In this document: positions 776-52,264 of the stretch, one piece after another
How positions within the stretch are numbered: position 1 is the stretch's first letter
How the letters are laid out: each line of letters begins with the position of its first letter
NCBI GenBank assembly: GCA_037134915.1
Contig: JBAXLJ010000001.1
Coordinates: 37,484-101,483 of the forward strand
Direction: 5' to 3'
DNA from: Candidatus Falkowbacteria bacterium
Lineage (GTDB): Bacteria > Patescibacteriota > Patescibacteriia > Patescibacteriales > UBA12465
Length of the DNA stretch: 64,000 nucleotides
Program-made: the position numbers and the translations under genes
Notes under the pieces: generated by a model
Seen by the model: only the letters and a program-made list of their open reading frames with translations
Databases searched by the model: none
What the model was told of the DNA's origin: nothing

Positions 776-873
776 TTTTTCGAAAATCGATTTTAGAAAA
801 ATGGCCTCTCATTTTTTATGGGAGGCACCGCTTTAAATCTAAATCTATTTAGCTTTAGAGCAGTGAAAACCAT

Positions 874-1266: not shown

Positions 1267-1275
1267 TTCCGATTT

Positions 1276-1683: not shown

Positions 1684-1690
1684 AAATATC

Positions 1691-2077: not shown

Positions 2078-2084
2078 ATTTTAT

Positions 2085-9130: not shown

Positions 9131-9203
9131 TGCGGGTATCGTATAATGGTTTTTTATATCAGCCTTCCAAGCTGAGGATGGGGGTTCGATTCCCCCTACC
9201 CGC
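9131..9203 (+). tRNA. tRNA-Gly (anticodon TCC)
   Basis: Acceptor GCGGGTA/TACCCGC. Anticodon stem-loop is TCAGC-cuUCCaa-GCTGA. T-arm is GGGGGTTCGATTCCCCC. Confidence 0.85.
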
Positions 9204-9304
9204 TCATTTTGTAAAAGCGCCCGGTAAACCTTTTGACTGTCGGGTGTTTTTTATTTGCCAAAACCCTCAAATATTGACATAATTACAAGATAAACCAAGT
9301 TTTT

Positions 9305-17721: not shown

Positions 17722-18063
17722 TTAATTATAGAACTTTAATTTAATAAAAATATTTTGGATTTCGGTTTTAATCTCCTGGGCTTTTTTACCAATAATTACT
17801 GGTAGAACAATAATTACACAATCCTGTCCGGTTTTTATTTTCAAATTTTCCTGGCTAATAATAGCCTTTATCCTTCTTTTATATAAATTTCGCTCCACCG
17901 CTGATTTACTAACTTTAGTGCTTAGTAAAACCCCAAACCGATTATTGTTAAGATTATTCTTTCTTGCTTTTATTCCTAAAAATTCTCCATAAACAGTTCT
18001 ACCTTCTTTAAAAACTAGATCAAACTCCTTATTTTTTTTTAAACGGTCGCTGTTGGCCAGCAT
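17722..18063 (-). CDS. rnpA: Ribonuclease P protein component
   Basis: Start placed at MLANSDRLKKNKEFDLVFKEG. The track ORF extending to 18228 runs through rpmH in another frame. Confidence 0.8.
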   Translation of the reverse strand: MLANSDRLKKNKEFDLVFKEGRTVYGEFLGIKARKNNLNNNRFGVLLSTKVSKSAVERNLYKRRIKAIISQENLKIKTGQDCVIIVLPVIIGKKAQEIKTEIQNIFIKLKFYN

Positions 18064-18079
18064 TAAATTAGAAAGATTA

Positions 18080-18217
18080 CTATTTTGATAAAACCTTTCG
18101 CCCCTTATCACGTCTTCTTTTAAGAACCGCTCGGCCATCTTCAGTTTCCATTCGATGCAAAAAACCATGCTTTTCGCTGGCTCGTTTCTTGTTTGGTTGG
18201 TATGTTCTTTTCGGCAT
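18080..18217 (-). CDS. rpmH: 50S ribosomal protein L34 (absent from the ORF track because it is under 60 aa)
   Basis: The minus strand reads ATG CCG AAA AGA ACA TAC..., giving [45 protein letters not shown]. The stop is at 18080-18082. Confidence 0.9.
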
Positions 18218-18404
18218 AATCTAAACATTATTATTTTTAAATTCTAAATTCTTATATACTCTAACACTTTTATTTTTAAAGGTCAATAATATAGAGGTTT
18301 CAATTATTTTTTAGTTATTAACAGGTTACTAACATATTATAAACAGCGCTAAGCTTGTGGTAAGAAAATTTATCTAATATAATTAGGTTATAACAAAAAT
18401 TTTT

Positions 18405-24555: not shown

Positions 24556-24627
24556 GCGCCCGTAGTTCAGCGGATAGAACACCAGCCTTCTAAGCTGGTT
24601 ACGAGGGTTCGACTCCCCCCGGGCGTA
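24556..24627 (+). tRNA. tRNA-Arg (anticodon TCT)
   Basis: GCGCCCGTAGTTCAGCGGATAGAAC-ACCAGC-cuUCUaa-GCTGGT...GGTTCGACTCC...CGGGCGT-A. There is one T-stem mismatch and a G1:U72 pair, so the ends are approximate. Confidence 0.8.
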
Positions 24628-24648
24628 CGTATAATTAATTTAATTTTT

Positions 24649-33893: not shown

Positions 33894-35025
33894 ATTGATG
33901 GTTTTTAATAGTTAAAAATATAGCGCCTAGGCCATAAATTATAAATAAGAGAGTAATTAATCCACCGACGACGGGGATGGCGGCTGCCAAAACAAAAATC
34001 AGCAAGCCGATAATTAAAACTAAAAAAATATTAAGAGTCTTTTTAAAGATTCTTTTGAACAATAACTCGCCGACAAAAAAAGATGAAACAATTATTGATA
34101 AAAATAGGGCGATAAGATAGGTGGCTAGCAGCATTAAAGATAAAGGAATCCCAATAACCGTAAAAATGAAAAAAATAATTACTAACGGAGCGGCAATTAG
34201 AATTACTAAACCGATTAAGGCCGATTGCCAATATTTTTTTTCTAAATTGTTTGAAGCCTTATATATAACTTTTTTATTTAGACTAAGAATGACTAGACCA
34301 ATTAAAAATAGAGCCGCTAATTTATAGAATATTTTTGATAGAGCGGCCACCGGTGAGGCTTCTTTATTTTTGACTTCTTGGCGGACAATGGCGCCGACTA
34401 TAGATGAAGGGCTTTCAATTTTAGCGACTTGGTTAGCGGAATACGTAAGACCGCCGGCCACCACCGCATCTTTAGTTATGAGCAGGCCGCCCTGTCCCGA
34501 GGAGGTAGATTCAGGGTTTATTTTTAAATTAATATTTTTACCAATTTTCCCTGATATTTTAGCGGCACTGATATAGCCGTGTAAATTTCCAGAAATTATA
34601 CCATTAAAGACTCCATTAACTCCGGCGATTAGAACATCCCAGCCAACTTTTGAATTAGGGCTTAGATTTATTTCTGTCCCGAAAGCATTAACGTTGTGGT
34701 CAATCTGACCATTGATATTTAAGTTGGTCCCGGCAATTCGAGCACTGCCTTTTATTTCGCCATTTACAGTAATGTTGTTGCTAAAAGCAATTAAATCACC
34801 ATTAACCGTTCCGTTTACAGTTATGTTCTTACATAAAGCAATTAAATCACCATTAACTGTGCCATCGATAGTCATATCGCTGCAGCTAGCATAAACATTA
34901 CCATCGGCAATCTCTTCTTTGTTGAGTTTTACGGAATTATCAACCTTAACCTCAAAAGCGTAAGAAGCACTGAGGGGAACGGCCAGAAAAATGGCCAAGG
35001 CTAAAACAATAAATAATTTTTTCAT
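33886..35025 (-). CDS. Exported beta-helical repeat (bactofilin/LiaG-like) domain fused to a polytopic membrane domain
   Basis: Signal peptide MKKLFIVLALAIFLAVPLSASYA. Repeats are TIDGTVNGDLIALCKNITVNGTVNGDLIAFSNNITVNGEIKG. There are 4-5 C-terminal TM helices. The stop overlaps the pmm start by 8 nt. Confidence 0.65.
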   Translation of the reverse strand: MKKLFIVLALAIFLAVPLSASYAFEVKVDNSVKLNKEEIADGNVYASCSDMTIDGTVNGDLIALCKNITVNGTVNGDLIAFSNNITVNGEIKGSARIAGTNLNINGQIDHNVNAFGTEINLSPNSKVGWDVLIAGVNGVFNGIISGNLHGYISAAKISGKIGKNINLKINPESTSSGQGGLLITKDAVVAGGLTYSANQVAKIESPSSIVGAIVRQEVKNKEASPVAALSKIFYKLAALFLIGLVILSLNKKVIYKASNNLEKKYWQSALIGLVILIAAPLVIIFFIFTVIGIPLSLMLLATYLIALFLSIIVSSFFVGELLFKRIFKKTLNIFLVLIIGLLIFVLAAAIPVVGGLITLLFIIYGLGAIFLTIKNHQYD

Positions 35026-35092
35026 AAGGTTGTTAATTTAGGGAAATTAGTATATCTTATAGTAATAAACATTTAGATTATAGCCCAAAACA

Positions 35093-36754
35093 ATGCCAGA
35101 AGCAATAATGGATTTAATTAAATATTGGCACAATCGCGTGAAAACACGAGATGATTTAGCTGAGGCTAAACGAGAAATATCCAAGAAATACAAAATTGGT
35201 TCTCTTTTGAATTCGCAAATACTAGAAGTTTATCGAGAACTTAATAAGAAAAATCAATTACCTCGTGGTTTTGATAAAAATCTTTGGGAAGGATTACTTC
35301 GTAAACGCTCAATTCGGACTTTATCCGGTATTGCTCCGGTGGCCGTTTTAACTAAGCCTTATCCTTGTCCGGGAAACTGTGCTTATTGCCCTAACGAGCC
35401 CAACATGCCCGTTTCTTATTTACCAAACGAGCCAGCGGTGATGCGGGCGGTTAAGTGTAACTTTGATCCTTATAAACAGACCGTGCTTCGTCTCAACTCA
35501 CTAGAGAATAATGGACACGAACCAAATAAAATTGAAATTATTGTTATTGGCGGCACTTGGAGTTATTTACCCGATAGATATCAATATTGGTATATCTTAA
35601 ATTGTTTTCGAGCGGCTAATGATTTTACCAAACTGCGCCAGAATGAAAGCATCGGTTCTTATTTAGAATCCGACGGGGACTCAAAACTACAAATTTTAAA
35701 ATCAGTAATTGGTAAAGTAATTTCACCATATCCGAAATCAATGACAATAGCTGATTTAAAAATCGCACTAGCTAAGGAACAGAAAAAAAATGAAACTGCG
35801 CAATATAAAATTATTGGTTTAACACTCGAGACTCGCCCAGATTATATTAATGAAAAAGAATTACGCCAAATGCGCGAACTAGGATGCACTCGGGTAGAAA
35901 TTGGCGTCCAAGCTCCAGATGATGAAATACTTAAAATAAATAATCGTGGACATAACGTCGCCGAAATTGCTCGAGCCACTAAAGAGCTTCGTAATTTTGG
36001 TTTTAAAATTACTTATCACATCATGCCCGCTCTTCCTGGTTCAACACCAAAGAGAGATTTGGAAATGTATAAAATGTTGTTTACGGATGAGCGTTTTCAA
36101 CCAGATCAAATTAAATTTTATCCAACGGTAGTCACTCAAGGCAGTTTATTGTATCGTTGGTGGAAAGCCGGAAAATATAGACCATACACAGATATCGAAC
36201 TTCAAGAATTAATTGTTGATTGTAAAAACTTTACACCGAAATATGTTCGCATTATTAGATTAATCAGAGATATTCCGGGTGAGTCAATTTTAGCGGGTAA
36301 TAAAATTACTAATTTGCGTCAGATAATGCAGCAACGTGGGGTTAAGTGTGATTGTATTCGTTGTCGTGAATCTAAAGAGACCGCTTACGTTAAAGATTTT
36401 AAAATTAACGTGCAGCAATATGCGGCGGGCGGCGGCACCGAATATTTTATTAGTGCCGATAGTTCCGATGATAAGACTTTATACGGCTTTTGTCGTTTAA
36501 GAATGAGTGAGGCCAGTTTAATTGCACCGGCCATGATTCGTGAGCTTCATGTTTACGGACAACTAATGCCAGTCGGTGGTGGTAAAAAAACCCAACACCG
36601 AGGACTAGGTAAAATATTGTTAGCAGAAGCGGAAAAAATCGCTAAAGAATTAGGTGTTAAAAAAATGGCGATTATTTCTGGAGTTGGTGTTCGTGATTAT
36701 TATCGTAAGACCGATTATAAGTTGAAAGGTAGTTATATGGTTAAAAATTTGTAA
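35093..36754 (+). CDS. elp3: Elp3-type radical SAM / GNAT acetyltransferase (tRNA wobble-uridine carboxymethylation enzyme homolog)
   Basis: Radical-SAM cluster motif PCPGNCAYCP, TIM-barrel region TLETRPDY...CTRVEIGVQ, and a C-terminal GNAT motif QHRGLGKILLAEAEKIA. 553 aa. Confidence 0.8.
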   Translation: MPEAIMDLIKYWHNRVKTRDDLAEAKREISKKYKIGSLLNSQILEVYRELNKKNQLPRGFDKNLWEGLLRKRSIRTLSGIAPVAVLTKPYPCPGNCAYCPNEPNMPVSYLPNEPAVMRAVKCNFDPYKQTVLRLNSLENNGHEPNKIEIIVIGGTWSYLPDRYQYWYILNCFRAANDFTKLRQNESIGSYLESDGDSKLQILKSVIGKVISPYPKSMTIADLKIALAKEQKKNETAQYKIIGLTLETRPDYINEKELRQMRELGCTRVEIGVQAPDDEILKINNRGHNVAEIARATKELRNFGFKITYHIMPALPGSTPKRDLEMYKMLFTDERFQPDQIKFYPTVVTQGSLLYRWWKAGKYRPYTDIELQELIVDCKNFTPKYVRIIRLIRDIPGESILAGNKITNLRQIMQQRGVKCDCIRCRESKETAYVKDFKINVQQYAAGGGTEYFISADSSDDKTLYGFCRLRMSEASLIAPAMIRELHVYGQLMPVGGGKKTQHRGLGKILLAEAEKIAKELGVKKMAIISGVGVRDYYRKTDYKLKGSYMVKNL

Positions 36755-36807
36755 TTTTTGACAAAAAACCCTTCCTAAACTATCATAATTAGGCAATAAA
36801 TAAACAT

Positions 36808-38052
36808 ATGAAATACGAATTTTTGCCATCTCAAGACCCAAAACTTTGGGAATATATCAGTGAAGAAAGTGCTCGTCAGGAAAACGAAATTGAGCTCATT
36901 GCTTCAGAAAATTACGTTTCCCCGGCGGTTTTAGAGGCTATGGCCACGGTACTGACTAATAAATATAGTGAAGGCTATAGCGGTCATCGTTATTACGGTG
37001 GCAATCAAGTGGTGGATAAGGTTGAAAGCCTAGCCATTAGTCGTGTTAAAGAGCTATTTGGAGCGGAGCATGTTAATGTTCAACCGCTTTCCGGTTCACC
37101 GGCTAACGCGGCCGTTTATATGGCCTTCTTAGAACCAGGAGATAAAGTTTTAGGTCTTCGTTTGGATCATGGTGGACACCTGTCTCACGGTCATAGTGTT
37201 AATTTTTCTGGTCGTTTGTATAACTTTGTTCAGTATGGTGTAAATGAAAAAACGGGAGTTATTGATATGGAGGAAGTGCGTCGCATTGCAATTGCCGAAA
37301 AACCAAAAATGATTGTGGCCGGTTTCTCCGCTTATTCACGAGAAGTTGATTGGCAAAAATTTAAGGAAATTGCCGATGAAGTTGGTGCTTTTACTTTTGC
37401 TGATATAGCTCATATCGCTGGACTAGTGGCGGCCGGGATTGTTAGCTCACCAGTTCCTTATTTTGATGTTATTTCCACTACCACTCATAAAACTTTACGC
37501 GGTCCACGTGGGGCGATTATAATGTGCAAGGAAAAGTTTGCTAAACAAATTGATCGGGCGGTTTTTCCTGGGATGCAAGGCGGCCCCCATGATCACATTA
37601 CCGCCGCTAAAGCCGTCGCTTTCGGCGAAGCTTTAAAGCCAGAGTTTAAAGATTATTCTAAACAAGTGATTACTAATGCTCAATCACTAGCTAAAGCCTT
37701 GACTGACAAAGGCTATACCATAGTTTCCGGGGGCACCGATAATCATTTGATGGTGGTTGATTTAAATAGTAAAAAATTGGTTGGTAAAGAGGCTGAAGTG
37801 GCCTTGGAAAGTATTGGTATTTCGGTCTCGCGTTCAACAATCCCCAACGACCCTAATCCGCCAATGAATCCGTCCGGAATTAGAATCGGTACTCCAGCGG
37901 TTACTACTCGTGGAATGAAAGAAGCGGAGATGGATATTTTAGCGTCTCTAATTGATCGCGCTTTAACTAATAAAGATAACGCCGAGGCTCTTGCGGCCTT
38001 AAAACAAGAAGTAAAAACTCTGTGTCAACATTTTCCAATTTATAAAAAATAA
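36808..38052 (+). CDS. glyA: Serine hydroxymethyltransferase
   Basis: Motifs ELIASENY, YSEGYSGHRYYGG and the PLP-lysine region TTTHKTLRGPRG. Confidence 0.95.
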   Translation: MKYEFLPSQDPKLWEYISEESARQENEIELIASENYVSPAVLEAMATVLTNKYSEGYSGHRYYGGNQVVDKVESLAISRVKELFGAEHVNVQPLSGSPANAAVYMAFLEPGDKVLGLRLDHGGHLSHGHSVNFSGRLYNFVQYGVNEKTGVIDMEEVRRIAIAEKPKMIVAGFSAYSREVDWQKFKEIADEVGAFTFADIAHIAGLVAAGIVSSPVPYFDVISTTTHKTLRGPRGAIIMCKEKFAKQIDRAVFPGMQGGPHDHITAAKAVAFGEALKPEFKDYSKQVITNAQSLAKALTDKGYTIVSGGTDNHLMVVDLNSKKLVGKEAEVALESIGISVSRSTIPNDPNPPMNPSGIRIGTPAVTTRGMKEAEMDILASLIDRALTNKDNAEALAALKQEVKTLCQHFPIYKK

Positions 38053-38056
38053 AAAC

Positions 38057-38890
38057 ATGAATATAATTGATGGTCGCGCTTTAGCCGAGAAGATAAAAGA
38101 TGATATTGCTTTAGAAGTTTTTGAGGCCGTAAAAAATGGTGAAACTCATCCGAGTTTGGCGATTGTTTTAGTTGGCACTCGCCCTGACTCCAAGCTCTAT
38201 GTCTCCTTAAAAGAACGGGAGGCTAAAAAACTAGGGATTGATACTTATCTTTATGAACTTGACGAAGCCGTTAGCGAATTAGAGCTAACTCAAACCATTG
38301 AATTTTTAAATAAGGATAACTCCATTGATTCAATTTTGGTTCAACTTCCTCTGCCAGAAAATTTTGATACTGATAAAATAATGTCAAAGCTTGACCCCAA
38401 AAAGGATGCGGATGGGTTTTTAGAAAATCACCCCAAAAATGTTATGTCTCCTGTTCTTGCAGCCATAAAATTAATGCTAGAAAACACTAAGATAACAGCT
38501 ACCAAATTAACGGCCGGAGCCCTCTATAATTCAGAAGTCTTTGGCGGGGCCCTAAAAAAAATATTAACTGATTTTGGTTTTAAAGAAGTCATCGGAATTA
38601 CCGGCAAGAAAGCTGGTGAGGTTAAAGATATTTCTTCTCGAGTCGATGTTTTAATTACAGCCATTGGTGTCCCCCTATTTATAAAAGATAACATGATTAA
38701 AGACCAAGCAGTTATTATTGATGTTGGTACGACTAGGGTTGGCACTAAAGTCTGCGGCGATGTTGATTTTGATAGCGTTAAAGATAAGGTTTCTTTTATT
38801 TCACCAGTTCCGGGTGGAATTGGGCCGATGACAATCGCCTTCCTGTTTAAAAATGTCCTCAGTATTTATAAAAATAAAAAAACCGCCTAA
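38057..38890 (+). CDS. folD: Bifunctional methylenetetrahydrofolate dehydrogenase/cyclohydrolase
   Basis: Motifs IIDGRALAEKI, LAIVLVGTRPDSKLYV and PVPGGIGPMT. Confidence 0.9.
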   Translation: MNIIDGRALAEKIKDDIALEVFEAVKNGETHPSLAIVLVGTRPDSKLYVSLKEREAKKLGIDTYLYELDEAVSELELTQTIEFLNKDNSIDSILVQLPLPENFDTDKIMSKLDPKKDADGFLENHPKNVMSPVLAAIKLMLENTKITATKLTAGALYNSEVFGGALKKILTDFGFKEVIGITGKKAGEVKDISSRVDVLITAIGVPLFIKDNMIKDQAVIIDVGTTRVGTKVCGDVDFDSVKDKVSFISPVPGGIGPMTIAFLFKNVLSIYKNKKTA

Positions 38891-38914
38891 ACGCGGTTTT
38901 AAACTATAACCGTC

Positions 38915-40693
38915 ATGCCGCACCGCAAAAAACAATTACTAGACCTACTTAAAATTCATTTTGGTTATGAGTCTTTTAGACCGGGTCAAGAAGAGGCTAT
39001 TGATCATATTTTAGCCGGCCATGATACGGTGGTAATTTTGCCTACAGGCGGTGGTAAATCCATGATTTATCAGTTGCCGGCCTTAATCTTTGAGGGTATT
39101 ACCCTGGTGGTTTCACCATTAATTGCTTTAATGAAGGACCAAGTTGATTCTTTAGATAAAGTTGGTATTCCTTCAACGTTTATTAACTCTTCTCTGTCGC
39201 CACAAGACAGCGAAGAAAGACTCAGAAAGATTAAGGCGGGTTATTATAAGATAGTTTATATTGCTCCGGAGCGTTTTTACAATGCTGTTTTTATGAGTGA
39301 TCTTAAGGGGCTAAAAGTTAATTTATTTGCCATTGATGAGGCTCATTGTATTTCTCAGTGGGGGCATGATTTCCGTCCCAGTTATATGCGCCTCAAAGAT
39401 GTAGTAAAAACGATTGGCTCACCGATTGTAGTGGCCTTAACCGCCACTGCCACCCCGGAGGTACGTGAAGATATTTCCAAACAACTAAATTTAGCTGATC
39501 CTAAATATGTAATTTCTGGTTTCGCGCGCCCTAATTTACAATTAGCGGTTGTGCAAGCTAGTAATGGACAAAAAACTCAACATATTTTAGACGCTTTGGA
39601 TAATAATAATTTAGGTTCAGGAATAATTTATGTTGGCACTAGGTCTAAAGCGGATGAGTTGGCTGAACTTCTAATAGAAAGAAATATCAAGGCGGTTGTT
39701 TATCACGCCGGCATGGATGCTAGTAGCCGTGATTGGGTGCAAGACAGTTTTATGAAAGGCGAAGCCCAGGTGGTAATCGCCACTAATGCTTTTGGTTTAG
39801 GAATCAATAAAAAAGATATTCGTTTTGTAATTCATCATGATTTGCCGGGAACAATCGAGGCTTATTATCAAGAAGCGGGCCGAGCGGGCCGTGATGGAAA
39901 AACTAGTTTTTGTTTATTATTTTATTCCCCCCAAGATAGATACTTAAGAGAATTTTTTATTAAGGGTGATAATCCGTCACCAAATATTATTATAGAGATT
40001 TATGAGCTGTTAGCTGATTGGTCAGATCGCAATGAAGAAATTGGTCAAGAAACGGTTTTAGTTACTTACTCAGAAATTATTCAGAATTTATCGGAACGCG
40101 TACCCGAAATGGCAGTTGGTACCGCTCTTAAAATTTTAGAAAAAGAAGGTTATCTATCGAGACCAAACGAAAAAAATTCTAATGCTTATTTAAAAGCCAA
40201 GGCCGATGTAGCGGCGATGTTTGAAGCATCGGGTAAAAGAGCTAAGGTGCAAATTGAAGTTATCAGTCTGTTGTTTGAAAAATTTGCTAAAGAATTTGCC
40301 GCCGGTTGGGAAATAAATTTGGAAGACGCTTCTTTAGTGATGGGAATTAAAAAAGATTCGCTTCAAAGAACTATTAAAAAATTAGTTGAAAAGGATTTAG
40401 TGGAATATCGCCCGCCTTTTCGGGGAACTGAGATTAAAATTTTAAAACGAGTCCGCTCGGAGGAGTTGAATCTGGATTTTAAATCACTTAAAAATAAAGC
40501 CGATAGGGCTTATGAGAAGTTAGATGAGATGGAGCAATATGTTTATCAAATTGGTTGTCGCCAACAGTATATTTTAAAATATTTTGGCGATCACGAGGCT
40601 AAAGACTGTGGCACTTGCGATAATTGTTTAAAACTTAAAAAAGTTAAAGAGGCTGGTGGTAAAGATTATCGTTATAAACAATATCTAGATTAA
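38915..40693 (+). CDS. recQ: ATP-dependent DNA helicase RecQ
   Basis: Motifs FGYESFRPGQEEAI, PTGGGKS, DEAHCISQWGHDFRPSY and QEAGRAGRDG, with Zn-binding cysteines near the C-terminus. Confidence 0.92.
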   Translation: MPHRKKQLLDLLKIHFGYESFRPGQEEAIDHILAGHDTVVILPTGGGKSMIYQLPALIFEGITLVVSPLIALMKDQVDSLDKVGIPSTFINSSLSPQDSEERLRKIKAGYYKIVYIAPERFYNAVFMSDLKGLKVNLFAIDEAHCISQWGHDFRPSYMRLKDVVKTIGSPIVVALTATATPEVREDISKQLNLADPKYVISGFARPNLQLAVVQASNGQKTQHILDALDNNNLGSGIIYVGTRSKADELAELLIERNIKAVVYHAGMDASSRDWVQDSFMKGEAQVVIATNAFGLGINKKDIRFVIHHDLPGTIEAYYQEAGRAGRDGKTSFCLLFYSPQDRYLREFFIKGDNPSPNIIIEIYELLADWSDRNEEIGQETVLVTYSEIIQNLSERVPEMAVGTALKILEKEGYLSRPNEKNSNAYLKAKADVAAMFEASGKRAKVQIEVISLLFEKFAKEFAAGWEINLEDASLVMGIKKDSLQRTIKKLVEKDLVEYRPPFRGTEIKILKRVRSEELNLDFKSLKNKADRAYEKLDEMEQYVYQIGCRQQYILKYFGDHEAKDCGTCDNCLKLKKVKEAGGKDYRYKQYLD

Positions 40694-40694
40694 A

Positions 40695-41393
40695 ATGAAA
40701 AAATCAGTTCAAATTAAATTATTACAAATAGTCCAGGACAATTACCGAGAAATTGCGGCGCAGTTTGATGCGACTAGAAAAAAATATATCTGGCCGGAAC
40801 TAAGCAGAGTCCTTGGCGGTTTAGAAGATGGTGACAGCATTTTAGATGTCGGTTGCGGTAACGGCCGGCTTTTGGAAAATTTAAAAAACAAAAAACTTTT
40901 TTATTTAGGCGTTGATAGCAGTAAAGAGTTAATTGAACTGGCTAAAATTAATTATCCAGGCTCAGATTTTAAAGTAGCTGATATTTTGGAATTAAATAAA
41001 ACCATTTCCAAAAAATTTAATCTAGTTATCTCAGTCGCCGTTTTACATCATTTGCCCAGTCAGAAATTGCGGCTGCAAGCTTTAGAACAATTGAAATTTT
41101 TAGCAGCGCCGCACGGGCAAATAATTTTTAGTGTTTGGCGTCTGTGGGATAATAAAAAATATCGAAGATATTTATTTAAGAATATTTGGCAAAAGATTAT
41201 TTTTAAAAGTGGTTTAGATTTCGGCGATTTGCTGTTTCCTTGGAAAAATAATCAAGGGGAGGCAATTAGTGAAAGATATTATCATGCTTTTACTAAAAGT
41301 GGCCTTCGGAGATTACTTAAGGCTGCTAAATTCCGCCACTACAAACTATATAGTGATCAGCATAATTATTGGGTTGTTATTGACACCCCATAG
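40695..41393 (+). CDS. Trm9/ALKBH8-like class I SAM-dependent methyltransferase
   Basis: YREIAAQFDATRKKYIWPEL, LDVGCGNGRLL, ISVAVLHHLPS, FPW, ERYYHAFT and NYWVVI parallel the ordered Trm9 motifs (IAPHFSxTRYKPWP, DVGCGNGKYL, ISIAVVHH, VPW, RYYHLY, NWWVV). Starts 1 nt after the recQ stop. Confidence 0.65.
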   Translation: MKKSVQIKLLQIVQDNYREIAAQFDATRKKYIWPELSRVLGGLEDGDSILDVGCGNGRLLENLKNKKLFYLGVDSSKELIELAKINYPGSDFKVADILELNKTISKKFNLVISVAVLHHLPSQKLRLQALEQLKFLAAPHGQIIFSVWRLWDNKKYRRYLFKNIWQKIIFKSGLDFGDLLFPWKNNQGEAISERYYHAFTKSGLRRLLKAAKFRHYKLYSDQHNYWVVIDTP

Positions 41394-41418
41394 GGGTATA
41401 TGCTAAGATCTTAACAAT

Positions 41419-41655
41419 ATGAAAACAACCGAACAAAGAATCAATAATATTATTGGCCAGCTCGAGGGCGTTAAAAAAATGTTGAATGATGAAGGTAAGG
41501 ATTGTCTGACGGTAATTGTTCAATTTAAGGCGGCTAAGTCGGCTATTTCTTCTTTAATGAACAAGCTACTAGAAGAGGAAATGGATAGTTGTTTTCTAAA
41601 GAAGAATAAACAGCCAGAAAAAATTTCTAAACTATTTAAAGAAATAATTAAATAA
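41419..41655 (+). CDS. CsoR/RcnR/FrmR-family (DUF156) metal- or stress-sensing repressor
   Basis: 78 aa. RINNIIGQLEGVKKML...DCLTVIVQFKAAKSAISSL...C. The usual His ligand seems to be missing. Confidence 0.7.
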   Translation: MKTTEQRINNIIGQLEGVKKMLNDEGKDCLTVIVQFKAAKSAISSLMNKLLEEEMDSCFLKKNKQPEKISKLFKEIIK

Positions 41656-41662
41656 TAATTTT

Positions 41663-41992
41663 ATGTCACAAGCGCAAGATGTAAACAAAAATAATTTTGA
41701 AAGTGAAGTTTTAAAAAGTGAGATTCCGGTTTTGGTGGATTTTTGGGCTCCTTGGTGTGGTCCCTGCCGAATGATGGCGCCAATTCTAGACGAGTTATCA
41801 GCTGAGCTAGCGGGTAAGTTAAAAATCGTCAAAGTAAACACCGAAGAATCAGAGAACCAAGAATTAGCTATTAAATATGAGATCCAAAGTATCCCTAATA
41901 TGAAACTTTTCAAAGGGGGTGTGATTATTGGCGAATTTATCGGATTAAGAAATAAAGAAAGTTTAAAGGATGAGTTAGCCGCTTTATTATAA
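41663..41992 (+). CDS. trxA: Thioredoxin
   Basis: Active-site motif WAPWCGPC. 109 aa. Confidence 0.93.
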   Translation: MSQAQDVNKNNFESEVLKSEIPVLVDFWAPWCGPCRMMAPILDELSAELAGKLKIVKVNTEESENQELAIKYEIQSIPNMKLFKGGVIIGEFIGLRNKESLKDELAALL

Positions 41993-42017
41993 TAGTTGTA
42001 AATAGTGTGTATTTATT

Positions 42018-42079
42018 AGGAGGCCAAACTGGTCTCCTTTTTTATAAAAAAAACAGAGCCGTTTAAGCTCTGTTTTTTA
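42018..42079. terminator. Pair of back-to-back intrinsic terminators between convergent genes
   Basis: AGGAGGCCaaacTGGTCTCCTttttt, then aaaaaaaaCAGAGCcgtttaaGCTCTGtttttt. Confidence 0.7.
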
Positions 42080-42103
42080 TCTCTATTTAAATCCTATAAA
42101 TCT

Positions 42104-43099
42104 TTATTGTCCACAACCGGCAGCAGCACTTCCGCTGGCCGCTGTACCTTCACCGAATCCAGGAGCTGGAGAGGCGGATGACAAGGTTGTTTCACATTCT
42201 TTTGGTTGGGTAGTGAAAGCGGAACAAATAGCCTTTAATAAGCTAGCACTATCTCGGCCGCTAGAAACGTCTTTACCGTTAATGATTAAAGTTGGTGAAC
42301 CGGCAACGCTATACTTGGTATTATCAGCTTTGTTAGTATCAAAACCAGGGAAGGTTCCTTGATAGCCGATATTATTTTTAGCATTAGCCGTGACACTAAA
42401 CTCAGCATCAGTTTTTGCTACACAGGCATTGTTTTTGTTAACATCAACGCCAGCGCTAGTTAAACACGAAGCACTGTCGCTAGCTTTTAAGAAACAAGTT
42501 AGATAATCATTAAACTTAGATCTTTGTTCTTTTTGAATACAATATTGAACTAAATTTTCTTTTAATTCTTTATCGCCGTGCATGGAGTAGTCAACAAACT
42601 TTAATTCATAATCAATCTTATTACCTAAAGCTTTAAGAGCTGGCAAAATTCCTTTTTCGATTTGAGTACCATATGGGCAGTAGCTCATGACAAACAATTC
42701 AACTTTTGGTTTGTCATTTTTTGGGACATCGACTGGTGCGCTAGCGGCGGCGTTTGATCCGGCGCTATTGGTTGCTGCGGTCTTGGAAGCTTCATCCATG
42801 TTTAAAGCTTGAGGAAAGAAAAGTGCGCCATCACGAGAAATGTAAGAATCTACTTTTTGGTCAGAGCCAATGTTAACCTTAACCTTATAAAGACCATAAG
42901 CCTCGGTAACTTCGGAGATAGTGGCTTTAGAGCCGCTCTGCATTAAATAAGTATTAATGTAATTTTCTGCTTTTAGCTTTGCCATTTCTGGCTTGATAAC
43001 ACCCTTATTTTTATATAAGGAAATTCCTAGAACAACGGCCACTATCAGGACTACCGCCACTAGTGCCACTGAACCAAAAATGATTCTCTTTTTTTTCAT
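42104..43099 (-). CDS. Membrane-anchored thioredoxin-fold (DsbA-like) protein with an N-terminal extra domain
   Basis: N-terminal TM anchor. A CPYG redox-like motif occurs in VMSYCPYGTQIEK. An Ala/Ser-rich linker is present, and the protein ends in AAGCGQ. Confidence 0.6.
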   Translation of the reverse strand: MKKKRIIFGSVALVAVVLIVAVVLGISLYKNKGVIKPEMAKLKAENYINTYLMQSGSKATISEVTEAYGLYKVKVNIGSDQKVDSYISRDGALFFPQALNMDEASKTAATNSAGSNAAASAPVDVPKNDKPKVELFVMSYCPYGTQIEKGILPALKALGNKIDYELKFVDYSMHGDKELKENLVQYCIQKEQRSKFNDYLTCFLKASDSASCLTSAGVDVNKNNACVAKTDAEFSVTANAKNNIGYQGTFPGFDTNKADNTKYSVAGSPTLIINGKDVSSGRDSASLLKAICSAFTTQPKECETTLSSASPAPGFGEGTAASGSAAAGCGQ

Positions 43100-47350: not shown

Positions 47351-49342
47351 ATGATCAACTTGATTATCTTGGGTAGCGCACTGGCCGCCATTATCTATGG
47401 CGCTATCGTTATCCGCCTCATTCTCAAAATGTCAGATGGTAATGAGCGCATGAAAGAAATTGCCAAAGCAATTCAAGACGGTGCTCGAGCTTTCTTAAAT
47501 CGCCAGTATAAAACAGTAGCCATCGTGGCAGCTATTTTATTCTTGGTTGTTGGCTTTATTCCTTCTTTAGGTTGGATGACAGCTATCGCTTTTTTAACCG
47601 GTGCCGTTTTATCAGCTCTTACTGGTTACATCGGCATGTTTGTTAGTGTTCGTGCTAATGTGAGAACCGCTGAAGCGGCTCGTGGTGGTATGCAAAAAGC
47701 TTTAAACGTTGCTGTTTGGGGCGGAAGCGTCACTGGTATGTTAGTCGTTGGCTTAGCTTTAATTGGTACTGCTGGCTTTTATTTCTTAACTCATGATTTA
47801 AACGCTATCATCGGTTTTGCTTTTGGTAGCTCTCTTATTTCTATCTTCGCTCGTTTGGGCGGTGGTATTTATACCAAAGCAGCTGACGTTGGAGCGGACT
47901 TAGTTGGTAAGGTTGAAGCTTCTATTCCAGAAGATGATCCTCGTAACCCAGCTGTAATTGCTGATAACGTAGGGGACAACGTTGGTGATTGTGCTGGTAT
48001 GGCGGCTGATTTGTTTGAAACTTACGCCGTGACTACTATTGCCACCATGGTGCTTGGTCACTTAGTTTTTAAGGGCAATGAAACCATTATTTTATTTCCC
48101 CTAGTTCTTGGCGCAGTTTCTATTATCGCTTCCATCATTGGTATTTTCTTTATCAGACTTGGCAAAAAACAAAATATCATGGGCGCTTTATACAAAGGTT
48201 TAATTGCCGCTGGTGTCTTATCAGCTATTGCTTTTTACTTTGTCACTAATTACTTCATTAAAGAAAACACTTTAAATATTTTCTTGGCTTCTTTAATTGG
48301 TTTAGTCGTTACTGGTTTGTTGGTTATTATTACTGAATACTACACCTCCACTGCTTTTGCTCCAGTTAAATCTATTGCTGAAGCTTCAAAAACTGGTCAC
48401 GGTACTAACGTGATTGCCGGTCTAGCAGTTTCTATGAAATCCACTGCTGCCCCTATCATTGTTATTTGTTTAGCTATCTTAGGCGCTTATTCTTTGGCTG
48501 GTTTATACGGAATCGCCATTGCGGCAATGGCGATGTTATCAATGGCCGGTATCATTGTGACGATTGATGCTTATGGTCCAATTACTGATAACGCTGGGGG
48601 TATCGCTGAAATGGCTGAATTAGGGGATGATGTTAGAAATATCACTGATCCATTAGATGCTGTTGGTAACACTACTAAAGCGGTTACTAAGGGTTATGCT
48701 ATTGGTTCTGCAGCTTTAGCGGCTTTAGTATTGTTTGCTGACTTCACTCAGAAAATTAAAGATGGTGGCGGTAGCGCACAATTCTTAATTGATAATCCAT
48801 ACGTTTTAATTGGTTTATTCATTGGTGGCTTACTACCATATTTATTTGGTGCGATGGCGATGAAAGCGGTTGGAAAAACTGCCGGATCAGTTGTAGAAGA
48901 TGTTCGGGCTCAATTTAAAGAAAAGCCAGGTATCATGTTAAATACTGAAAAACCAGATTATGGTCGCACGGTTGATATCGTAACTAAAGCAGCTATCAAA
49001 GAAATGATTGTGCCAGCTTTAATTCCAGTTTTAGTACCTATTATTGTTGGCTTTGCTTTTATGTCTCACGGCGTTGAAGCTTTAGCAGGTTTACTTGTTG
49101 GTTCAATTATCACTGGTTTGTTTGTGGCTATTTCTATGACTTCAGGTGGTGGTGCTTGGGACAATGCTAAGAAATACATTGAACTTGGTAATTTCGGTGG
49201 TAAAGGTTCAGATGCTCACAAAGCAGCTGTAACTGGTGACACAGTTGGTGATCCTTACAAAGATACTGCTGGTCCAGCTATCAACCCAATGATTAAAGTA
49301 TTAAACATTGTAGCGTTATTAATTGTTGGTTTACTTATCTAA
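47351..49342 (+). CDS. hppA: Membrane-bound ion-translocating pyrophosphatase
   Basis: Motifs [29 protein letters not shown] and [16 protein letters not shown]. Confidence 0.95.
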
Positions 49343-50122: not shown

Positions 50123-51424
50123 ATGCAAGTAACCAAAAAAGATTTAGAAAAATCGCAGGCAGAATTATTAATTGAGCTAACAATTGAAGAATTTACTCCA
50201 TATATTGAAAAAGGAGCACAAAAAATTTCCGAAAAAGTAAAAATTGAAGGCTTTCGTCCAGGCAAAGCGCCGCTGGATATTTTAAAACAAAAAGTTGGTG
50301 AGATGACTATTTTAGAAGAAGCAGCACATTTGGCAATTCACAAAACAATTGACGACGCTATAGAGAAAAATACTATGGATCGGATGGCGGTTGGCCAACC
50401 TAAGGTGGAAATTACCAAACTAGCGCCAGGCAATCCGTTTGAATATAAAGTGATAGTAGCGATTATGCCCACCGTGGCCCTAGGTAAATATAAAGATTTA
50501 AAAATTAAACCAGTTGAAGCTAAGGTTGAAAAAGTGGATATTGAGAAAACTTTAAAAGAACTTCAGGAAATGCGCGTTAAAGAAACTCTTTCTGAGGAAG
50601 GGGTGAGCGATAGCGACAAGGTTTTGGTGGACATTGAAATGTTTATGGACAAAGTTCCTGTAGAAGGCGGTCAAACTAAGGATTTGGCGGTAATTATTGG
50701 AAAAAATTATTTTGTTGGTGGCTTTGATAAAGAATTATTGGGCGCCAAAACTGGAGAGGTGAGAGAATTTTCTCTGCCTTTTCCAGATGACCACCATCAG
50801 AAAAATTTAGCCGGTAAAATGGTGGACTTTAAAGTGAAAATTACTTCAATTTACACAAGAGAATTACCCGAGATAAACGATGAATTTGCGGTTGGTTTCC
50901 GTTTTAAGGATTTAGCCGATCTGGAGAAAACATTGAGCGAAAATATCATGGCTGACAGGAAGAGTCAAGCAGAAAATAAAACTGAGCTAGAAGTATTGGA
51001 CAAGATTGTTGGCGATACTAAATTTGGTGATTTACCGGAGGCGATGGTTGAAAGCGAAACTCATCACATGATGCATGAAATTGAGGATAATTTAGCTAGA
51101 CAGGGCGGTAAAATGGAAGATTATTTACAACACCTTGGTAAAACTAGAAATGAACTGGTTTTAGATTTACTGCCTAACGCTGTTAAAAGAGTAAAAACGG
51201 CTTTAGTTATGAAAGAGGTGGGAATTGTTGAGAAAATTGAGGCTAGTGAATCAGAAATTGATAAAAAACTTGAGGAATTAAAAGCCGAACATAAAGACAA
51301 TAAAGAATTAGAAAAAATGGCGAAAGACCAAGCCTACCGTCGTTATTTAGGTAATGTTTTACAAAATGAAAAGGTTTTGGCTAAATTAAAAGAATGGAAT
51401 TATGCCGGTACTGGCAACAAATAA
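50123..51424 (+). CDS. tig: Trigger factor
   Basis: The N-terminal ribosome-binding region contains GFRPGKAP. 433 aa. Confidence 0.9.
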   Translation: MQVTKKDLEKSQAELLIELTIEEFTPYIEKGAQKISEKVKIEGFRPGKAPLDILKQKVGEMTILEEAAHLAIHKTIDDAIEKNTMDRMAVGQPKVEITKLAPGNPFEYKVIVAIMPTVALGKYKDLKIKPVEAKVEKVDIEKTLKELQEMRVKETLSEEGVSDSDKVLVDIEMFMDKVPVEGGQTKDLAVIIGKNYFVGGFDKELLGAKTGEVREFSLPFPDDHHQKNLAGKMVDFKVKITSIYTRELPEINDEFAVGFRFKDLADLEKTLSENIMADRKSQAENKTELEVLDKIVGDTKFGDLPEAMVESETHHMMHEIEDNLARQGGKMEDYLQHLGKTRNELVLDLLPNAVKRVKTALVMKEVGIVEKIEASESEIDKKLEELKAEHKDNKELEKMAKDQAYRRYLGNVLQNEKVLAKLKEWNYAGTGNK

Positions 51425-51866
51425 AAAAGCTAATTTTGATTATAAATTACTGGAAACTTTTGAAGCCGGTTTGGTTTTGTTTGGCCATGAGGTAAAGGCC
51501 ATTAAAGATGGTCATGTGAGTTTGAAAGGAGCTTATATCTCTTTTAGATATCTAAATAGCGCCCCAGAATTATTTTTAATTGGGGCGCACATTTCTAAAT
51601 ATCGTCACGCCGGCAACTTGCCGGATTATAATCCGATTCGGGAACGCAAAATATTGCTTAGAAATAGAGAAATCCAGCACTTATTGGGTAAGAAACAGGA
51701 AAATGGCTTGACACTAGTGCCTGTCAAAATATATACTAAGCGTAGCTTAATCAAAATGGAACTCGCGCTCGCCGAAGGTAAGAAAAAATTCGACAAGCGG
51801 GAGGACTTAAAAAAGAAGGATTTGGATCGCCAAATCAGTACTTTAATGAAACGAGGATTAAGATAG
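51402..51866 (+). CDS. smpB: SsrA-binding protein SmpB
   Basis: Motifs NKKANFDY, EAGLVLFGHEVK and a C-terminal basic tail. The tmRNA gene follows immediately. Confidence 0.93.
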   Translation: MPVLATNKKANFDYKLLETFEAGLVLFGHEVKAIKDGHVSLKGAYISFRYLNSAPELFLIGAHISKYRHAGNLPDYNPIRERKILLRNREIQHLLGKKQENGLTLVPVKIYTKRSLIKMELALAEGKKKFDKREDLKKKDLDRQISTLMKRGLR

Positions 51867-52238
51867 GGGGATGTCGGGCTTTCGATAGCAAGACATTTCT
51901 TTAAACGTGCAAAACGCAGTGAGCGTCTGCGTACTAAAGCTCAAAAAACAAATGCAAAGAAATCTGCAGCGTTTACTTGGTTAGTTCCAAGTTTCGCACC
52001 TGTTGTCGCTTAAATTGCCACAACCATCAGCTTAGTGAAAGCTTAATAACTAAATCTGGTGTCATACGTAAAGCTAGGTAATCAGGTCTCTTTCATCTGA
52101 GAAGCCGAAATCAAAGAAAGATAGCGCCAGTGTTTTTCTCCCGGTTTTAGATCACTCGCGCGAAATACAAACTGGAATATTTTTGTAGAAGCGTTTAAAG
52201 TAACTTGTTAGACATGGGTTCAACTCCCATCATCTCCA
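51867..52238 (+). ncRNA. ssrA: tmRNA (ssrA)
   Basis: 5' GGGGATG pairs with 3' CATCTCC and includes a G3:U Ala-identity pair. The T-arm-like element is GGGTTCAACTCCC. The internal tag reading frame ends ...GCA CCT GTT GTC GCT TAA (stop at 52011-52013). Confidence 0.85.
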
Positions 52239-52264
52239 CATTTATTTTTTAAATATATAAGAAA

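What the first reader, a model, noticed from the sequence alone, without database searches (positions are those of the whole stretch)
35093..41393. Elp3 homolog and Trm9-like methyltransferase in one same-strand gene run: a possible eukaryote/archaea-style (m)cm5U34 pathway in a bacterium
The gene at 35093-36754 encodes a full-length Elp3-type enzyme with the radical-SAM motif CPGNCAYCP and the GNAT motif QHRGLGKILL. The gene at 40695-41393 starts 1 nt after the recQ stop. Its ordered motifs (FDATRKKYIWP, DVGCGNGRLL, SVAVLHH, FPW, RYYHAF, NYWVV) track yeast Trm9 closely. In eukaryotes, Elp3 makes cm5U34 and Trm9 methylates it to mcm5U. Bacteria normally use MnmE/MnmG instead, and only a few bacterial Elp3 homologs are known, for example in Dehalococcoides. 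The usual origin-proximal position of mnmE/mnmG, next to yidC, is empty here. The intervening genes glyA, folD and recQ are tightly spaced on the same strand (gaps of 53, 4, 24 and 1 nt), so co-transcription is possible.
Basis: partly seen in the sequence, partly recalled or inferred. Interest (0 to 1): 0.6.

Follow-up and report, generated by a model that had tools for sequence, protein, structure and literature searches.

The report
Bacterial Elp3–Trm9 wobble-uridine tRNA pathway
A candidate-phyla-radiation bacterium, and many of its relatives, keep next to each other the two enzymes that archaea and eukaryotes use to decorate the wobble uridine of tRNA, which suggests this huge bacterial group uses the 'non-bacterial' route, though no one has yet measured the modification.

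Summary
The window is from a Candidatus Falkowbacteria (Patescibacteria/CPR) MAG. Gene 35093-36754 is a full-length Elp3 (TIGR01211, 538 bits against a 350 cutoff). Gene 40695-41393 is a genuine Trm9-family methyltransferase. Its best solved-structure match is Yarrowia Trm9, full length. Profile-profile comparison with fungal Trm9 gives 99.9% probability (E 1.5e-36). All eight residues whose mutation inactivates yeast Trm9 are conserved. The two genes are linked across Patescibacteria: Elp3 lies within 10 kb of the methyltransferase in 43 of 60 assessable GTDB loci. There are two architectures: Elp3-glyA-folD-recQ-trm9 (30 loci) and a head-to-head Elp3|trm9 pair in otherwise different contexts (13 loci). 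No Trm112 partner was found, and Trm112-contact hydrophobic residues are replaced by charged or polar ones. MnmE/MnmG were not found in the window, at the yidC position, or in 1.37 Mb of related loci. The whole source genome could not be searched. Most likely function: Elp3 makes cm5U34, Trm9 esterifies it to mcm5U34, and bacterial MnmA may add s2. Databases already label these genes (PGAP 'Elp3', JGI 'TRM9'). I found no paper describing the pair in bacteria.

The parts
35093..36754 (+). Elp3: radical-SAM plus GNAT/KAT enzyme, the predicted cm5U34 synthase, full length with the N-terminal extension
   Evidence: TIGR01211 at 538 bits against a 350 cutoff, model positions 7-522 matched. Best solved structure is DmcElp3 5L7J, E 7e-121. 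C92/C96/C99 and Q501xxG504xG506 are conserved in 39-40 of 40 linked CPR Elp3 genes.
36808..38052 (+). glyA (serine hydroxymethyltransferase). It follows Elp3 in both conserved architectures.
   Evidence: PF00464 at 541 bits and NF000586 at 613 bits. Elp3-glyA-folD order is kept in the co-directional and head-to-head loci.
38057..38890 (+). folD (methylene-THF dehydrogenase/cyclohydrolase)
   Evidence: PF00763 and PF02882. Present in 60 of 81 sequences (the window plus 80 loci).
38915..40693 (+). RecQ-family DNA helicase, present only in the co-directional architecture
   Evidence: TIGR00614 at 429 bits against a 220 cutoff; TIGR01389 at 514 bits, below its 640 cutoff. Absent from the 13 head-to-head loci.
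40695..41393 (+). Trm9-family SAM-dependent methyltransferase, the predicted cm5U34 to mcm5U34 methyl-esterifying enzyme, probably independent of Trm112
   Evidence: Essential residues are R28, D74, H119, W148, W183, R194, Y196 and N224. AF2 model has pLDDT 89.
41419..41655 (+). CsoR/RcnR-type metal-sensing repressor in the same run. It is not a Trm112 candidate and is probably unrelated to the tRNA pathway.
   Evidence: PF02583 at 63 bits. Conserved after the methyltransferase in 19 sequences, the window included.
41663..41992 (+). Thioredoxin (trxA), last gene of the co-directional run
   Evidence: TIGR01068 at 113 bits. Follows the methyltransferase in 29 loci, mostly of the co-directional type.
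42018..42078 (+). Two terminator-like hairpins with T tracts, the only strong ones on the + strand in 34800-42200
   Evidence: pattern match only.
9132..9205 (+). tRNA-Gly(UCC), a candidate substrate (U34)
   Evidence: ARAGORN and Rfam. That Gly-UCC carries mcm5U in yeast is from my own knowledge, not tested here.
24556..24628 (+). tRNA-Arg(UCU), a candidate substrate (U34)
   Evidence: ARAGORN and Rfam. That Arg-UCU carries mcm5U in yeast is from my own knowledge, not tested here.

Best explanation
This Falkowbacteria genome, like many Patescibacteria, encodes a two-enzyme archaeal/eukaryotic-type pathway for the C5 side chain of wobble uridine. Step 1 (inferred from family membership): stand-alone Elp3 binds the anticodon stem-loop and cleaves SAM at its [4Fe-4S] cluster (C92/C96/C99). 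It uses acetyl-CoA bound in the KAT domain (Q501xxGxG) to attach a carboxymethyl group to C5 of U34, giving cm5U. Step 2 (inferred from residue-level conservation with mutationally mapped Trm9): the 232-aa Trm9 homologue binds SAM through D74 and the DVGCGNG loop. R28 and H119 position the cm5U carboxylate, N224 and W148 recognise the uracil, and the enzyme forms the methyl ester mcm5U34. Step 3 (more speculative): bacterial MnmA, which exists in this phylum, thiolates position 2 on Lys/Glu/Gln tRNAs, giving mcm5s2U by a hybrid route. The Trm9 homologue probably works without Trm112. What is shown: homology, catalytic-residue conservation, and conserved gene linkage in two architectures. What is inferred: enzymatic activity, the product, the substrate tRNAs, Trm112 independence, and replacement of MnmE/MnmG.
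For: Elp3 membership: TIGR01211 above its cutoff, all catalytic motifs, and best PDB hits all Elp3. Trm9 membership: 5CM2 Trm9 is the top sequence hit (E 5.7e-18 for the single protein, 8.7e-27 for the profile) and the only full-length one. It is also the top Foldseek hit. hhalign against 15 fungal Trm9 gives 99.94% probability, E 1.5e-36, over 206 columns. The reciprocal fungal profile scores 101 bits on the window protein and 62-124 bits on all 81 family members in the window and loci, and hits no other ORF. The eight residues whose Ala mutants inactivate ScTrm9 (PMC4678810) are invariant in 22 diverse homologues and 83-100% conserved in 342. Linkage: Elp3 is within 10 kb of the methyltransferase in 43 of 60 assessable GTDB loci. 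Thirteen of these are head-to-head pairs with gaps of 27-563 nt and otherwise unrelated neighbours. Matching contig lengths between the Elp3 and methyltransferase hit lists agree. The same Elp3-Trm9 clustering was reported for Sulfolobus, and archaeal Trm9 was shown to make mcm5U (PMC6144793). MnmA is found 1-3 kb from the methyltransferase in L046 and L060. MnmE and MnmG are not found in the window or in 1.37 Mb of related loci, while E. coli DnaA, YidC and MnmA queries do find their CPR orthologues.
Against: There are no biochemical or nucleoside data for any Patescibacterium. Bacterial DmcElp3 showed only very weak activity in vitro, and xcm5U has never been demonstrated in bacteria. In 17 assessable loci Elp3 is not within the flank, so linkage is not universal. 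The closed S. epibionticum genome has neither gene. All characterised Trm9 enzymes need Trm112, and none was found here, so the enzyme could be inactive alone or use an unrecognised partner. By fold alone the margin over other class I methyltransferases is small. Part of the synteny is shared ancestry within one phylum. Co-transcription is unproven, and a near-consensus promoter-like site lies between Elp3 and glyA.
Confidence: 0.7

Rival explanations
1. The Elp3-Trm9 pathway is real but does not replace MnmE/MnmG. The source genome also encodes MnmEG elsewhere, and the two systems split the U34 tRNAs between them.
For: Only 64 kb of a 314-kb contig, and of a roughly 1-Mb genome, could be examined. 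The related loci all sample the same neighbourhood, so absence there says little. glyA supplies exactly the MnmEG co-substrates glycine and methylene-THF (for the MnmEG chemistry) and is conserved beside Elp3.
Against: There is no MnmE or MnmG after yidC in the window, and none in 1.37 Mb even at E<0.01, while MnmA, DnaA and YidC are detected. A closed Saccharibacteria genome has MnmA but no K03495 or K03650, so MnmEG is dispensable in at least part of the phylum.
Confidence: 0.25
2. The 232-aa protein is a Trm9-like fold recruited to another substrate, such as a different carboxylated nucleoside, a small molecule or a protein. Its position near Elp3 would then be inherited housekeeping synteny.
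For: Pfam and NCBIfam give only generic class I methyltransferase hits, and NCBI calls it 'class I SAM-dependent methyltransferase'. No Trm112 was found. The metazoan Trm9 paralogue TRMT9B is not needed for baseline wobble methylation. Seventeen loci lack a nearby Elp3.
Against: The substrate-recognition residues are conserved, including those proposed to read the uracil (N224, W148) and the cm5 carboxylate (R28, H119, R194), not just the SAM site. The head-to-head pairing with Elp3 persists while all other neighbours change. E. coli CmoM, the bacterial carboxyl-methylating wobble enzyme, matches at only 27 bits.
Confidence: 0.1
3. CPR Elp3 is not a tRNA enzyme here, acting for example as a protein acetyltransferase or another radical-SAM function, or it makes a side chain other than cm5.
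For: JGI labels some homologues 'Histone acetyltransferase'. DmcElp3 is barely active on tRNA in vitro. There is a variable 7-50-aa insertion at residues 178-227.
Against: The full Elp3 architecture is present, including the N-terminal tRNA-binding region that DmcElp3 lacks. Archaeal stand-alone Elp3 makes cm5U in vitro. Tight linkage to a Trm9 orthologue makes sense only if cm5U is produced.
Confidence: 0.07

Closest known systems
Archaeal Elp3 plus Trm9-Trm112 (Haloferax volcanii HVO_1032/Trm112; the Elp3-Trm9 gene cluster of Sulfolobus solfataricus; Methanocaldococcus infernus Elp3)
   Same: Stand-alone Elp3 without Elp1,2,4-6. A Trm9 orthologue. Elp3 and Trm9 genes clustered. The expected product, mcm5U34, has been demonstrated in H. 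volcanii.
   Different: The host is a bacterium. No Trm112 was detected, and the Trm112-contact hydrophobics (fungal I/V and F) are K/R/S and D/E/N/K here. The probable thiolation partner is bacterial MnmA, not the Ncs6/Urm1-type system. The pair is embedded with glyA-folD.
Eukaryotic Elongator (Elp1-6) plus Trm9/ALKBH8-Trm112
   Same: Same two catalytic families. All eight mutationally essential Trm9 residues are conserved. 32% consensus identity over 206 columns to fungal Trm9.
   Different: No accessory Elongator subunits and no Trm112. There is no AlkB/RRM fusion as in ALKBH8.
Dehalococcoides mccartyi Elp3 (PDB 5L7J), the reference bacterial Elp3
   Same: The closest solved structure by sequence (E 7e-121) and bacterial in origin.
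   Different: DmcElp3 lacks the N-terminal extension and is nearly inactive in vitro. The CPR protein has a roughly 70-aa N-terminus matching the Elp3 model and a linked Trm9. I found no report of a Trm9 partner for Dehalococcoides.
Bacterial MnmE/MnmG(-MnmC) and CmoM
   Same: The same biological job: a C5 side chain on wobble U34. CmoM also methyl-esterifies a wobble carboxylate.
   Different: Unrelated enzymes and chemistry. MnmE and MnmG are not detected here. CmoM matches the methyltransferase only weakly over the Rossmann N-terminus (27 bits).

Membership tests
Elp3 (TIGR01211) | Full-length match above the curated cutoff, with rSAM, rSAM_C and GNAT domains in order | tested here: met
   538 bits against a 350 cutoff; residues 12-553 match model positions 7-522. 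PF04055, PF16199 and PF00583 are present.
Elp3 (TIGR01211) | Radical-SAM CX3CX2C cluster cysteines and the acetyl-CoA Q/RxxGxG/A motif | tested here: met
   C92/C96/C99 and Q501/G504/G506. These are conserved in 39-40 of 40 linked CPR Elp3 genes.
Elp3 (TIGR01211) | cm5U34-forming activity on tRNA | not testable with these tools
   Requires biochemistry. It has been shown for archaeal MinElp3 and only weakly for DmcElp3.
Trm9 / ALKBH8 methyltransferase family | Closest relatives are Trm9, reciprocally and over the full length including the C-terminal substrate lobe | tested here: met
   The family profile scores 5CM2 at 97 bits against 52 for the next hit. The fungal Trm9 profile scores the window protein at 101 bits against 40 for its best non-Trm9 PDB hit. 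hhalign gives 99.94% probability.
Trm9 / ALKBH8 methyltransferase family | Residues essential for ScTrm9 activity: R29, D72, H116, W145, W168, R241, Y243, N271 | tested here: met
   They map to R28, D74, H119, W148, W183, R194, Y196 and N224. These are invariant in alignment A1 and 83-100% conserved in 342 members.
Trm9 / ALKBH8 methyltransferase family | Obligate Trm112 activator partner | tested here: inconclusive
   No YcaR/Trm112-like ORF appears in the window or the 80 loci (phmmer at E<10). The small ORF after the gene is a CsoR-type repressor. Interface positions YlV59 and YlF78 are charged or polar here, while F116 and D117 are kept. The whole genome was not searched.
Trm9 / ALKBH8 methyltransferase family | A cm5U-producing Elp3 in the same genome | tested here: met
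   Same strand, 3.9 kb upstream in the window. Within 10 kb in 43 of 60 assessable loci.
Trm9 / ALKBH8 methyltransferase family | SAM-dependent methyl esterification of cm5U34 | not testable with these tools
   Needs an enzyme assay or complementation.
MnmE/MnmG pathway (considered as present or absent) | mnmE and mnmG genes in the genome | tested here: inconclusive
   Absent from the 64-kb window, including the rnpA-yidC position, from about 7 kb of extra flank, and from 1.37 Mb of related loci. Absent from the closed S. epibionticum genome.
CmoM (cmo5U methyl-ester methyltransferase) | Full-length similarity to E. coli CmoM | tested here: not met
   Only 27 bits over 79 N-terminal residues. 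The fungal Trm9 profile does not hit CmoM.

The most novel reading that the evidence does not exclude
Across much of the Patescibacteria, a radiation that holds a large share of bacterial diversity, the canonical bacterial MnmE/MnmG wobble system has been replaced by an archaeal/eukaryotic-type Elp3-Trm9 pair. This pair would work without Elongator accessory subunits and without Trm112, and would combine with bacterial MnmA to give a hybrid route to mcm5(s2)U. Bacterial tRNAs would then carry a modification thought to be confined to archaea and eukaryotes. Trm9 would have a naturally Trm112-independent form. The conserved Elp3-glyA-folD unit could point to an unrecognised coupling between one-carbon metabolism and this modification.
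Probability: 0.4. Interest if true: 0.7.

Novelty: new member of a known kind. Interest (0 to 1): 0.55.

Why it matters
mcm5U and mcm5s2U, and the Elp3-Trm9 route to them, are treated in the literature as archaeal and eukaryotic. A 2020 Elongator review states that there is no direct evidence for xcm5U derivatives in bacteria. If the pathway operates in Patescibacteria, it changes the picture of how wobble decoding is tuned in a very large bacterial group. It would also offer a simple, Trm112-free Trm9 and a full-length stand-alone bacterial Elp3 for mechanistic work. And it bears on gene exchange between CPR bacteria and archaea. It is directly testable by heterologous expression and by nucleoside LC-MS. 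The limits are real: both enzyme families and the pathway are already known, automated pipelines already label these genes, and nothing here is experimental.

Tried and rejected
(1) Trm112 candidate: the conserved 78-aa ORF right after the methyltransferase (41419-41655) turned out to be a CsoR/RcnR-type repressor (PF02583). phmmer with E. coli YcaR found nothing in 6031 ORFs.

(2) CmoM-like alternative: rejected, with only 27 bits over the N-terminus.

(3) Genome-wide mnmE/mnmG test: not possible.

(4) AFDB50 fold search: the library was unavailable. By fold alone the PDB search separates Trm9 from other class I methyltransferases only narrowly, so the argument rests on sequence and residues.

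(5) Glatt et al. 2016 (PMC5018218) is not held, so what it says about MnmEG in Dehalococcoides could not be checked.

(6) Literature: no paper in the library combines Elp3 with Candidate Phyla Radiation. For Elp3 with Patescibacteria, three papers hold both terms: one of the two listed concerns a Thorarchaeia elp3 context, the other is a review on an unrelated subject that I did not open, and the third was not listed. No paper combines MnmG with Patescibacteria.

(7) The 'tRNA methyltransferase' reported as essential in S. epibionticum cannot be this gene, because that genome lacks a TRM9 or Elp3 KO.

(8) Promoter scan: promoter-like sites are no more frequent than in shuffles (25 against 21.5 +/- 5), so it says nothing firm about operon structure.

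(9) No tree including archaeal Trm9 or ALKBH8 was built, because those sequences could not be retrieved. The reciprocal profile scores stand in for it.


Full report
**What is there**

The window comes from a Candidatus Falkowbacteria MAG in the Patescibacteria (CPR) group. An identical copy of the 232-aa protein is on record from an NCBI MAG on a 314,016-bp contig.
- Elp3, 35093-36754
- glyA, 36808-38052
- folD, 38057-38890
- a RecQ-family helicase, 38915-40693
- a 232-aa methyltransferase, 40695-41393

All are on the + strand, with gaps of 53, 4, 24 and 1 nt. The run continues with a CsoR/RcnR-type metal repressor (41419-41655, PF02583) and trxA (41663-41992). The only strong terminator-like hairpins on this strand lie just after trxA, at 42018-42078. 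A near-consensus promoter-like site sits in the Elp3-glyA gap. Promoter-like sites are no more frequent than in shuffled sequence, so co-transcription is plausible but not shown.

**Elp3**

The 553-aa protein matches TIGR01211 (Elp3) at 538 bits against a curated cutoff of 350. The match runs over model positions 7-522, so it includes the N-terminal region. Its best solved relatives are all Elp3: Dehalococcoides 5L7J at E 7e-121, then Methanocaldococcus infernus, mouse/human and yeast. The radical-SAM cysteines C92, C96 and C99, a C-x-C-x-x-C motif at residues 419-424, and the acetyl-CoA motif Q501-x-x-G504-x-G506 are all present. In 40 linked CPR Elp3 genes, the radical-SAM cysteines are kept in 39 and the other two motifs in all 40. 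Most also carry the roughly 70-aa N-terminal extension that DmcElp3 lacks. A region equivalent to residues 178-227 varies in length from 7 to 50 aa. Elp3 homologues of this type are very numerous: at least 7997 score E<=1e-30, which is the scoring cap. They are already named 'Elp3' by PGAP and 'elongator complex protein 3' by JGI in Patescibacteria MAGs.

**The methyltransferase is a Trm9**

Pfam and NCBIfam give only generic class I methyltransferase hits. The sequence evidence for Trm9 is much more specific.

- **Solved structures.** The best match is chain Z of 5CM2, the Yarrowia lipolytica Trm9 from the Trm9-Trm112 complex. It scores E 5.7e-18 over residues 32-229, and the next hit (E 4.9e-10) covers only the Rossmann N-terminus.
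- **Family profile.** With a profile of 22 diverse homologues (A1), Trm9 scores 97 bits against 52 for the runner-up.
- **Reciprocal profile.** A profile of 15 fungal Trm9 proteins (A2) scores the window protein at 101 bits. It scores all 81 family members in the window and related loci at 62-124 bits and hits no other ORF. It does not hit E. coli CmoM. Its best non-Trm9 solved structure reaches only 40 bits.
- **Profile-profile.** hhalign of A1 against A2 gives 99.94% probability, E 1.5e-36, over 206 aligned columns.
- **Fold.** An AlphaFold2 model (pLDDT 89, pTM 0.87) has 5CM2 as its top Foldseek hit. By fold alone the margin over other class I methyltransferases is small.
- **Essential residues.** Létoquart et al. 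2015 identified eight ScTrm9 residues whose alanine mutants are zymocin-resistant and enzymatically impaired: R29, D72, H116, W145, W168, R241, Y243 and N271. These map to R28, D74, H119, W148, W183, R194, Y196 and N224 in the window protein. All are invariant in A1 and 83-100% conserved across 342 family members. They include the residues proposed to hold the cm5U carboxylate and to read the uracil ring, so substrate recognition looks conserved as well as SAM binding.
- **Rival family.** E. coli CmoM, the bacterial enzyme that methyl-esterifies a wobble carboxylate, matches at only 27 bits.

**Linkage to Elp3 across genomes**

A scan of one genome per GTDB species found at least 533 relatives of the methyltransferase. 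The best 80 loci are essentially all Patescibacteria: Falkowbacteria, Parcubacteria, Saccharibacteria and Portnoybacteria. Several CAY*/CAZ* third-party assemblies are titled 'uncultured Gammaproteobacteria', but L001 among them shares the window's gene order at 84-87% protein identity, and others share the order at lower identity, so the titles are evidently wrong.

tblastn with the window's proteins shows two architectures:
- In 30 loci, Elp3 lies upstream on the same strand, in the order Elp3-glyA-folD-recQ-MT, often followed by trxA.
- In 13 loci from more divergent lineages, Elp3 is immediately adjacent and divergently transcribed, with gaps of 27-563 nt. In six of them glyA and folD follow Elp3 on its strand, and recQ is absent from all 13.

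In the head-to-head loci the other neighbours differ from locus to locus, while the Elp3|MT pair persists. Twenty loci are cut too short to judge. Seventeen have no Elp3 within the flank. So 43 of 60 assessable loci (72%) carry Elp3 within 10 kb. The same Elp3-Trm9 clustering was noted for Sulfolobus, and H. volcanii Trm9-Trm112 was shown to make mcm5U (PMC6144793).

**Trm112**

Every characterised Trm9 needs Trm112, which shields a hydrophobic patch. I found no Trm112/YcaR-like ORF in the window or in the 80 loci. The two core hydrophobic contact positions, YlV59 (I/V in fungi) and YlF78 (F in fungi), are K/R/S and D/E/N/K in the CPR family. F116 and D117 are retained. This fits a stand-alone enzyme, but it is an inference, and the whole genome was not searched.

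**MnmE/MnmG and thiolation**

The origin region lies in the window. rnpA (17722-18228) and yidC (16653-17399) are on the minus strand. A convergent DAGK-like gene comes next, with no jag, mnmE or mnmG, and dnaA and dnaN lie on the other side.

E. coli MnmE and MnmG give no tblastn hit, even at E<0.01, in the window, its short flank extensions or the 80 loci, 1.37 Mb in all. E. coli DnaA (36% identity), YidC (29%) and MnmA (44-45%, in L046 and L060, 1-3 kb from the MT) are all detected.

This sample is not random.

The complete annotated gene tables of the cultured Saccharibacterium Southlakia epibionticum list MnmA (K00566) beside a cysteine desulfurase. They list no MnmG (K03495), MnmE (K03650), Elp3 (K07739) or TRM9 (K15444) (PMC10633639, Tables S1 and S2). 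So MnmEG is dispensable in at least one closed genome of the phylum, and the Elp3-Trm9 pair is not universal either.

**Most likely mechanism**

- Elp3 carboxymethylates C5 of U34 using SAM-derived radical chemistry and acetyl-CoA.
- The Trm9 homologue methyl-esterifies cm5U to mcm5U.
- MnmA may add the 2-thio group on Lys/Glu/Gln tRNAs.

Candidate substrates in the window are tRNA-Gly(UCC) and tRNA-Arg(UCU). That these carry mcm5U in yeast is from my own knowledge. Homology, residue conservation and linkage are shown. Activities, product, Trm112 independence and replacement of MnmEG are inferred.

**Novelty**

A 2020 Elongator review placed bacterial Elp3 only in Dehalococcoides and noted that there is no direct evidence for xcm5U derivatives in bacteria. 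A 2026 paper speaks of 'numerous bacteria' having Elp3 alone. In the searchable library no paper combines Elp3 with Candidate Phyla Radiation, or MnmG with Patescibacteria. For Elp3 with Patescibacteria, three papers hold both terms: one of the two listed concerns a Thorarchaeia elp3 context, the other is a review on an unrelated subject that I did not open, and the third was not listed. Nothing I found describes a bacterial Trm9. Automated pipelines do label the genes: PGAP 'Elp3', and JGI 'TRM9' for some homologues.

I therefore rate this as a new member of a known kind. The pathway is known; the host domain is unexpected. It may also have variant features, namely no Trm112 and a hybrid with MnmA. 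It is of moderate to good interest and readily testable.

Noticed in passing
window 35093-38890; loci L063, L065, L067, L075, L079, L080 and the co-directional loci: Elp3-glyA-folD is itself a conserved three-gene unit. It is kept in both architectures, whether the methyltransferase is downstream or head-to-head with Elp3. GlyA makes glycine and methylene-THF, which are the MnmEG co-substrates, yet Elp3 chemistry uses acetyl-CoA. I have no explanation for the link.
   Followed up: partly
L046:11787-12842(-) and L060:13171-14226(-): MnmA, the bacterial s2U34 thiouridylase (44-45% identical to E. coli MnmA), lies 1-3 kb from the Trm9-like gene in two Patescibacteria loci. This suggests a hybrid bacterial/archaeal route to mcm5s2U.
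   Followed up: partly
window 41419-41655 (+), with 41663-41992 (trxA) and 42104-43099 (-): A CsoR/RcnR-type metal-sensing repressor (PF02583) is conserved directly after the methyltransferase in 19 sequences, the window included, and is followed by thioredoxin. On the other strand there is a thioredoxin-like/GILT-like secreted protein. Together these look like a small redox/metal module.
   Followed up: partly
window 371-2911 (+): Six tandem paralogous genes of 128-139 aa. Five are hit by PF18895 (T4SS_pilin) in the precomputed annotation, and relatives occur in 30 of the related loci.
   Followed up: no
L001, L004, L005, L008, L018 and other CAY*/CAZ* TPA records: Many third-party MAG records are titled 'uncultured Gammaproteobacteria bacterium'. 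L001 carries the same gene order as the window at 84-87% protein identity (others share the order at lower identity), so these are clearly Patescibacteria. The titles look like placeholder mislabels.
   Followed up: partly
window 35624-35773 (Elp3 residues 178-227): A roughly 50-aa insertion relative to DmcElp3, between the two blocks that align to solved Elp3 structures. Its length varies from 7 to 50 aa among linked CPR Elp3 genes.
   Followed up: partly
window 38915-40693 (+): The RecQ-family helicase scores below the RecQ equivalog cutoff (514 against 640 bits). Its RecQ zinc-binding domain sits at the extreme C-terminus (residues 524-572), after a weak MarR-like winged-helix match. Its stop is 1 nt before the methyltransferase start in the window, and tblastn places it directly upstream of the methyltransferase in most co-directional loci.
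   Followed up: no
PMC10633639 Tables S1/S2 (Southlakia epibionticum ML1): This closed Saccharibacteria genome has MnmA but no MnmE, MnmG, Elp3 or TRM9 KO. It may therefore carry no C5 side chain at all on wobble uridines.
   Followed up: partly
window 51402-52239 and 47351-49342: smpB sits immediately upstream of the tmRNA gene (tag AKKSAAFTWLVPSFAPVVA). A membrane H+-pyrophosphatase (PF03030, 900 bits) lies nearby. Both are ordinary features.
   Followed up: no
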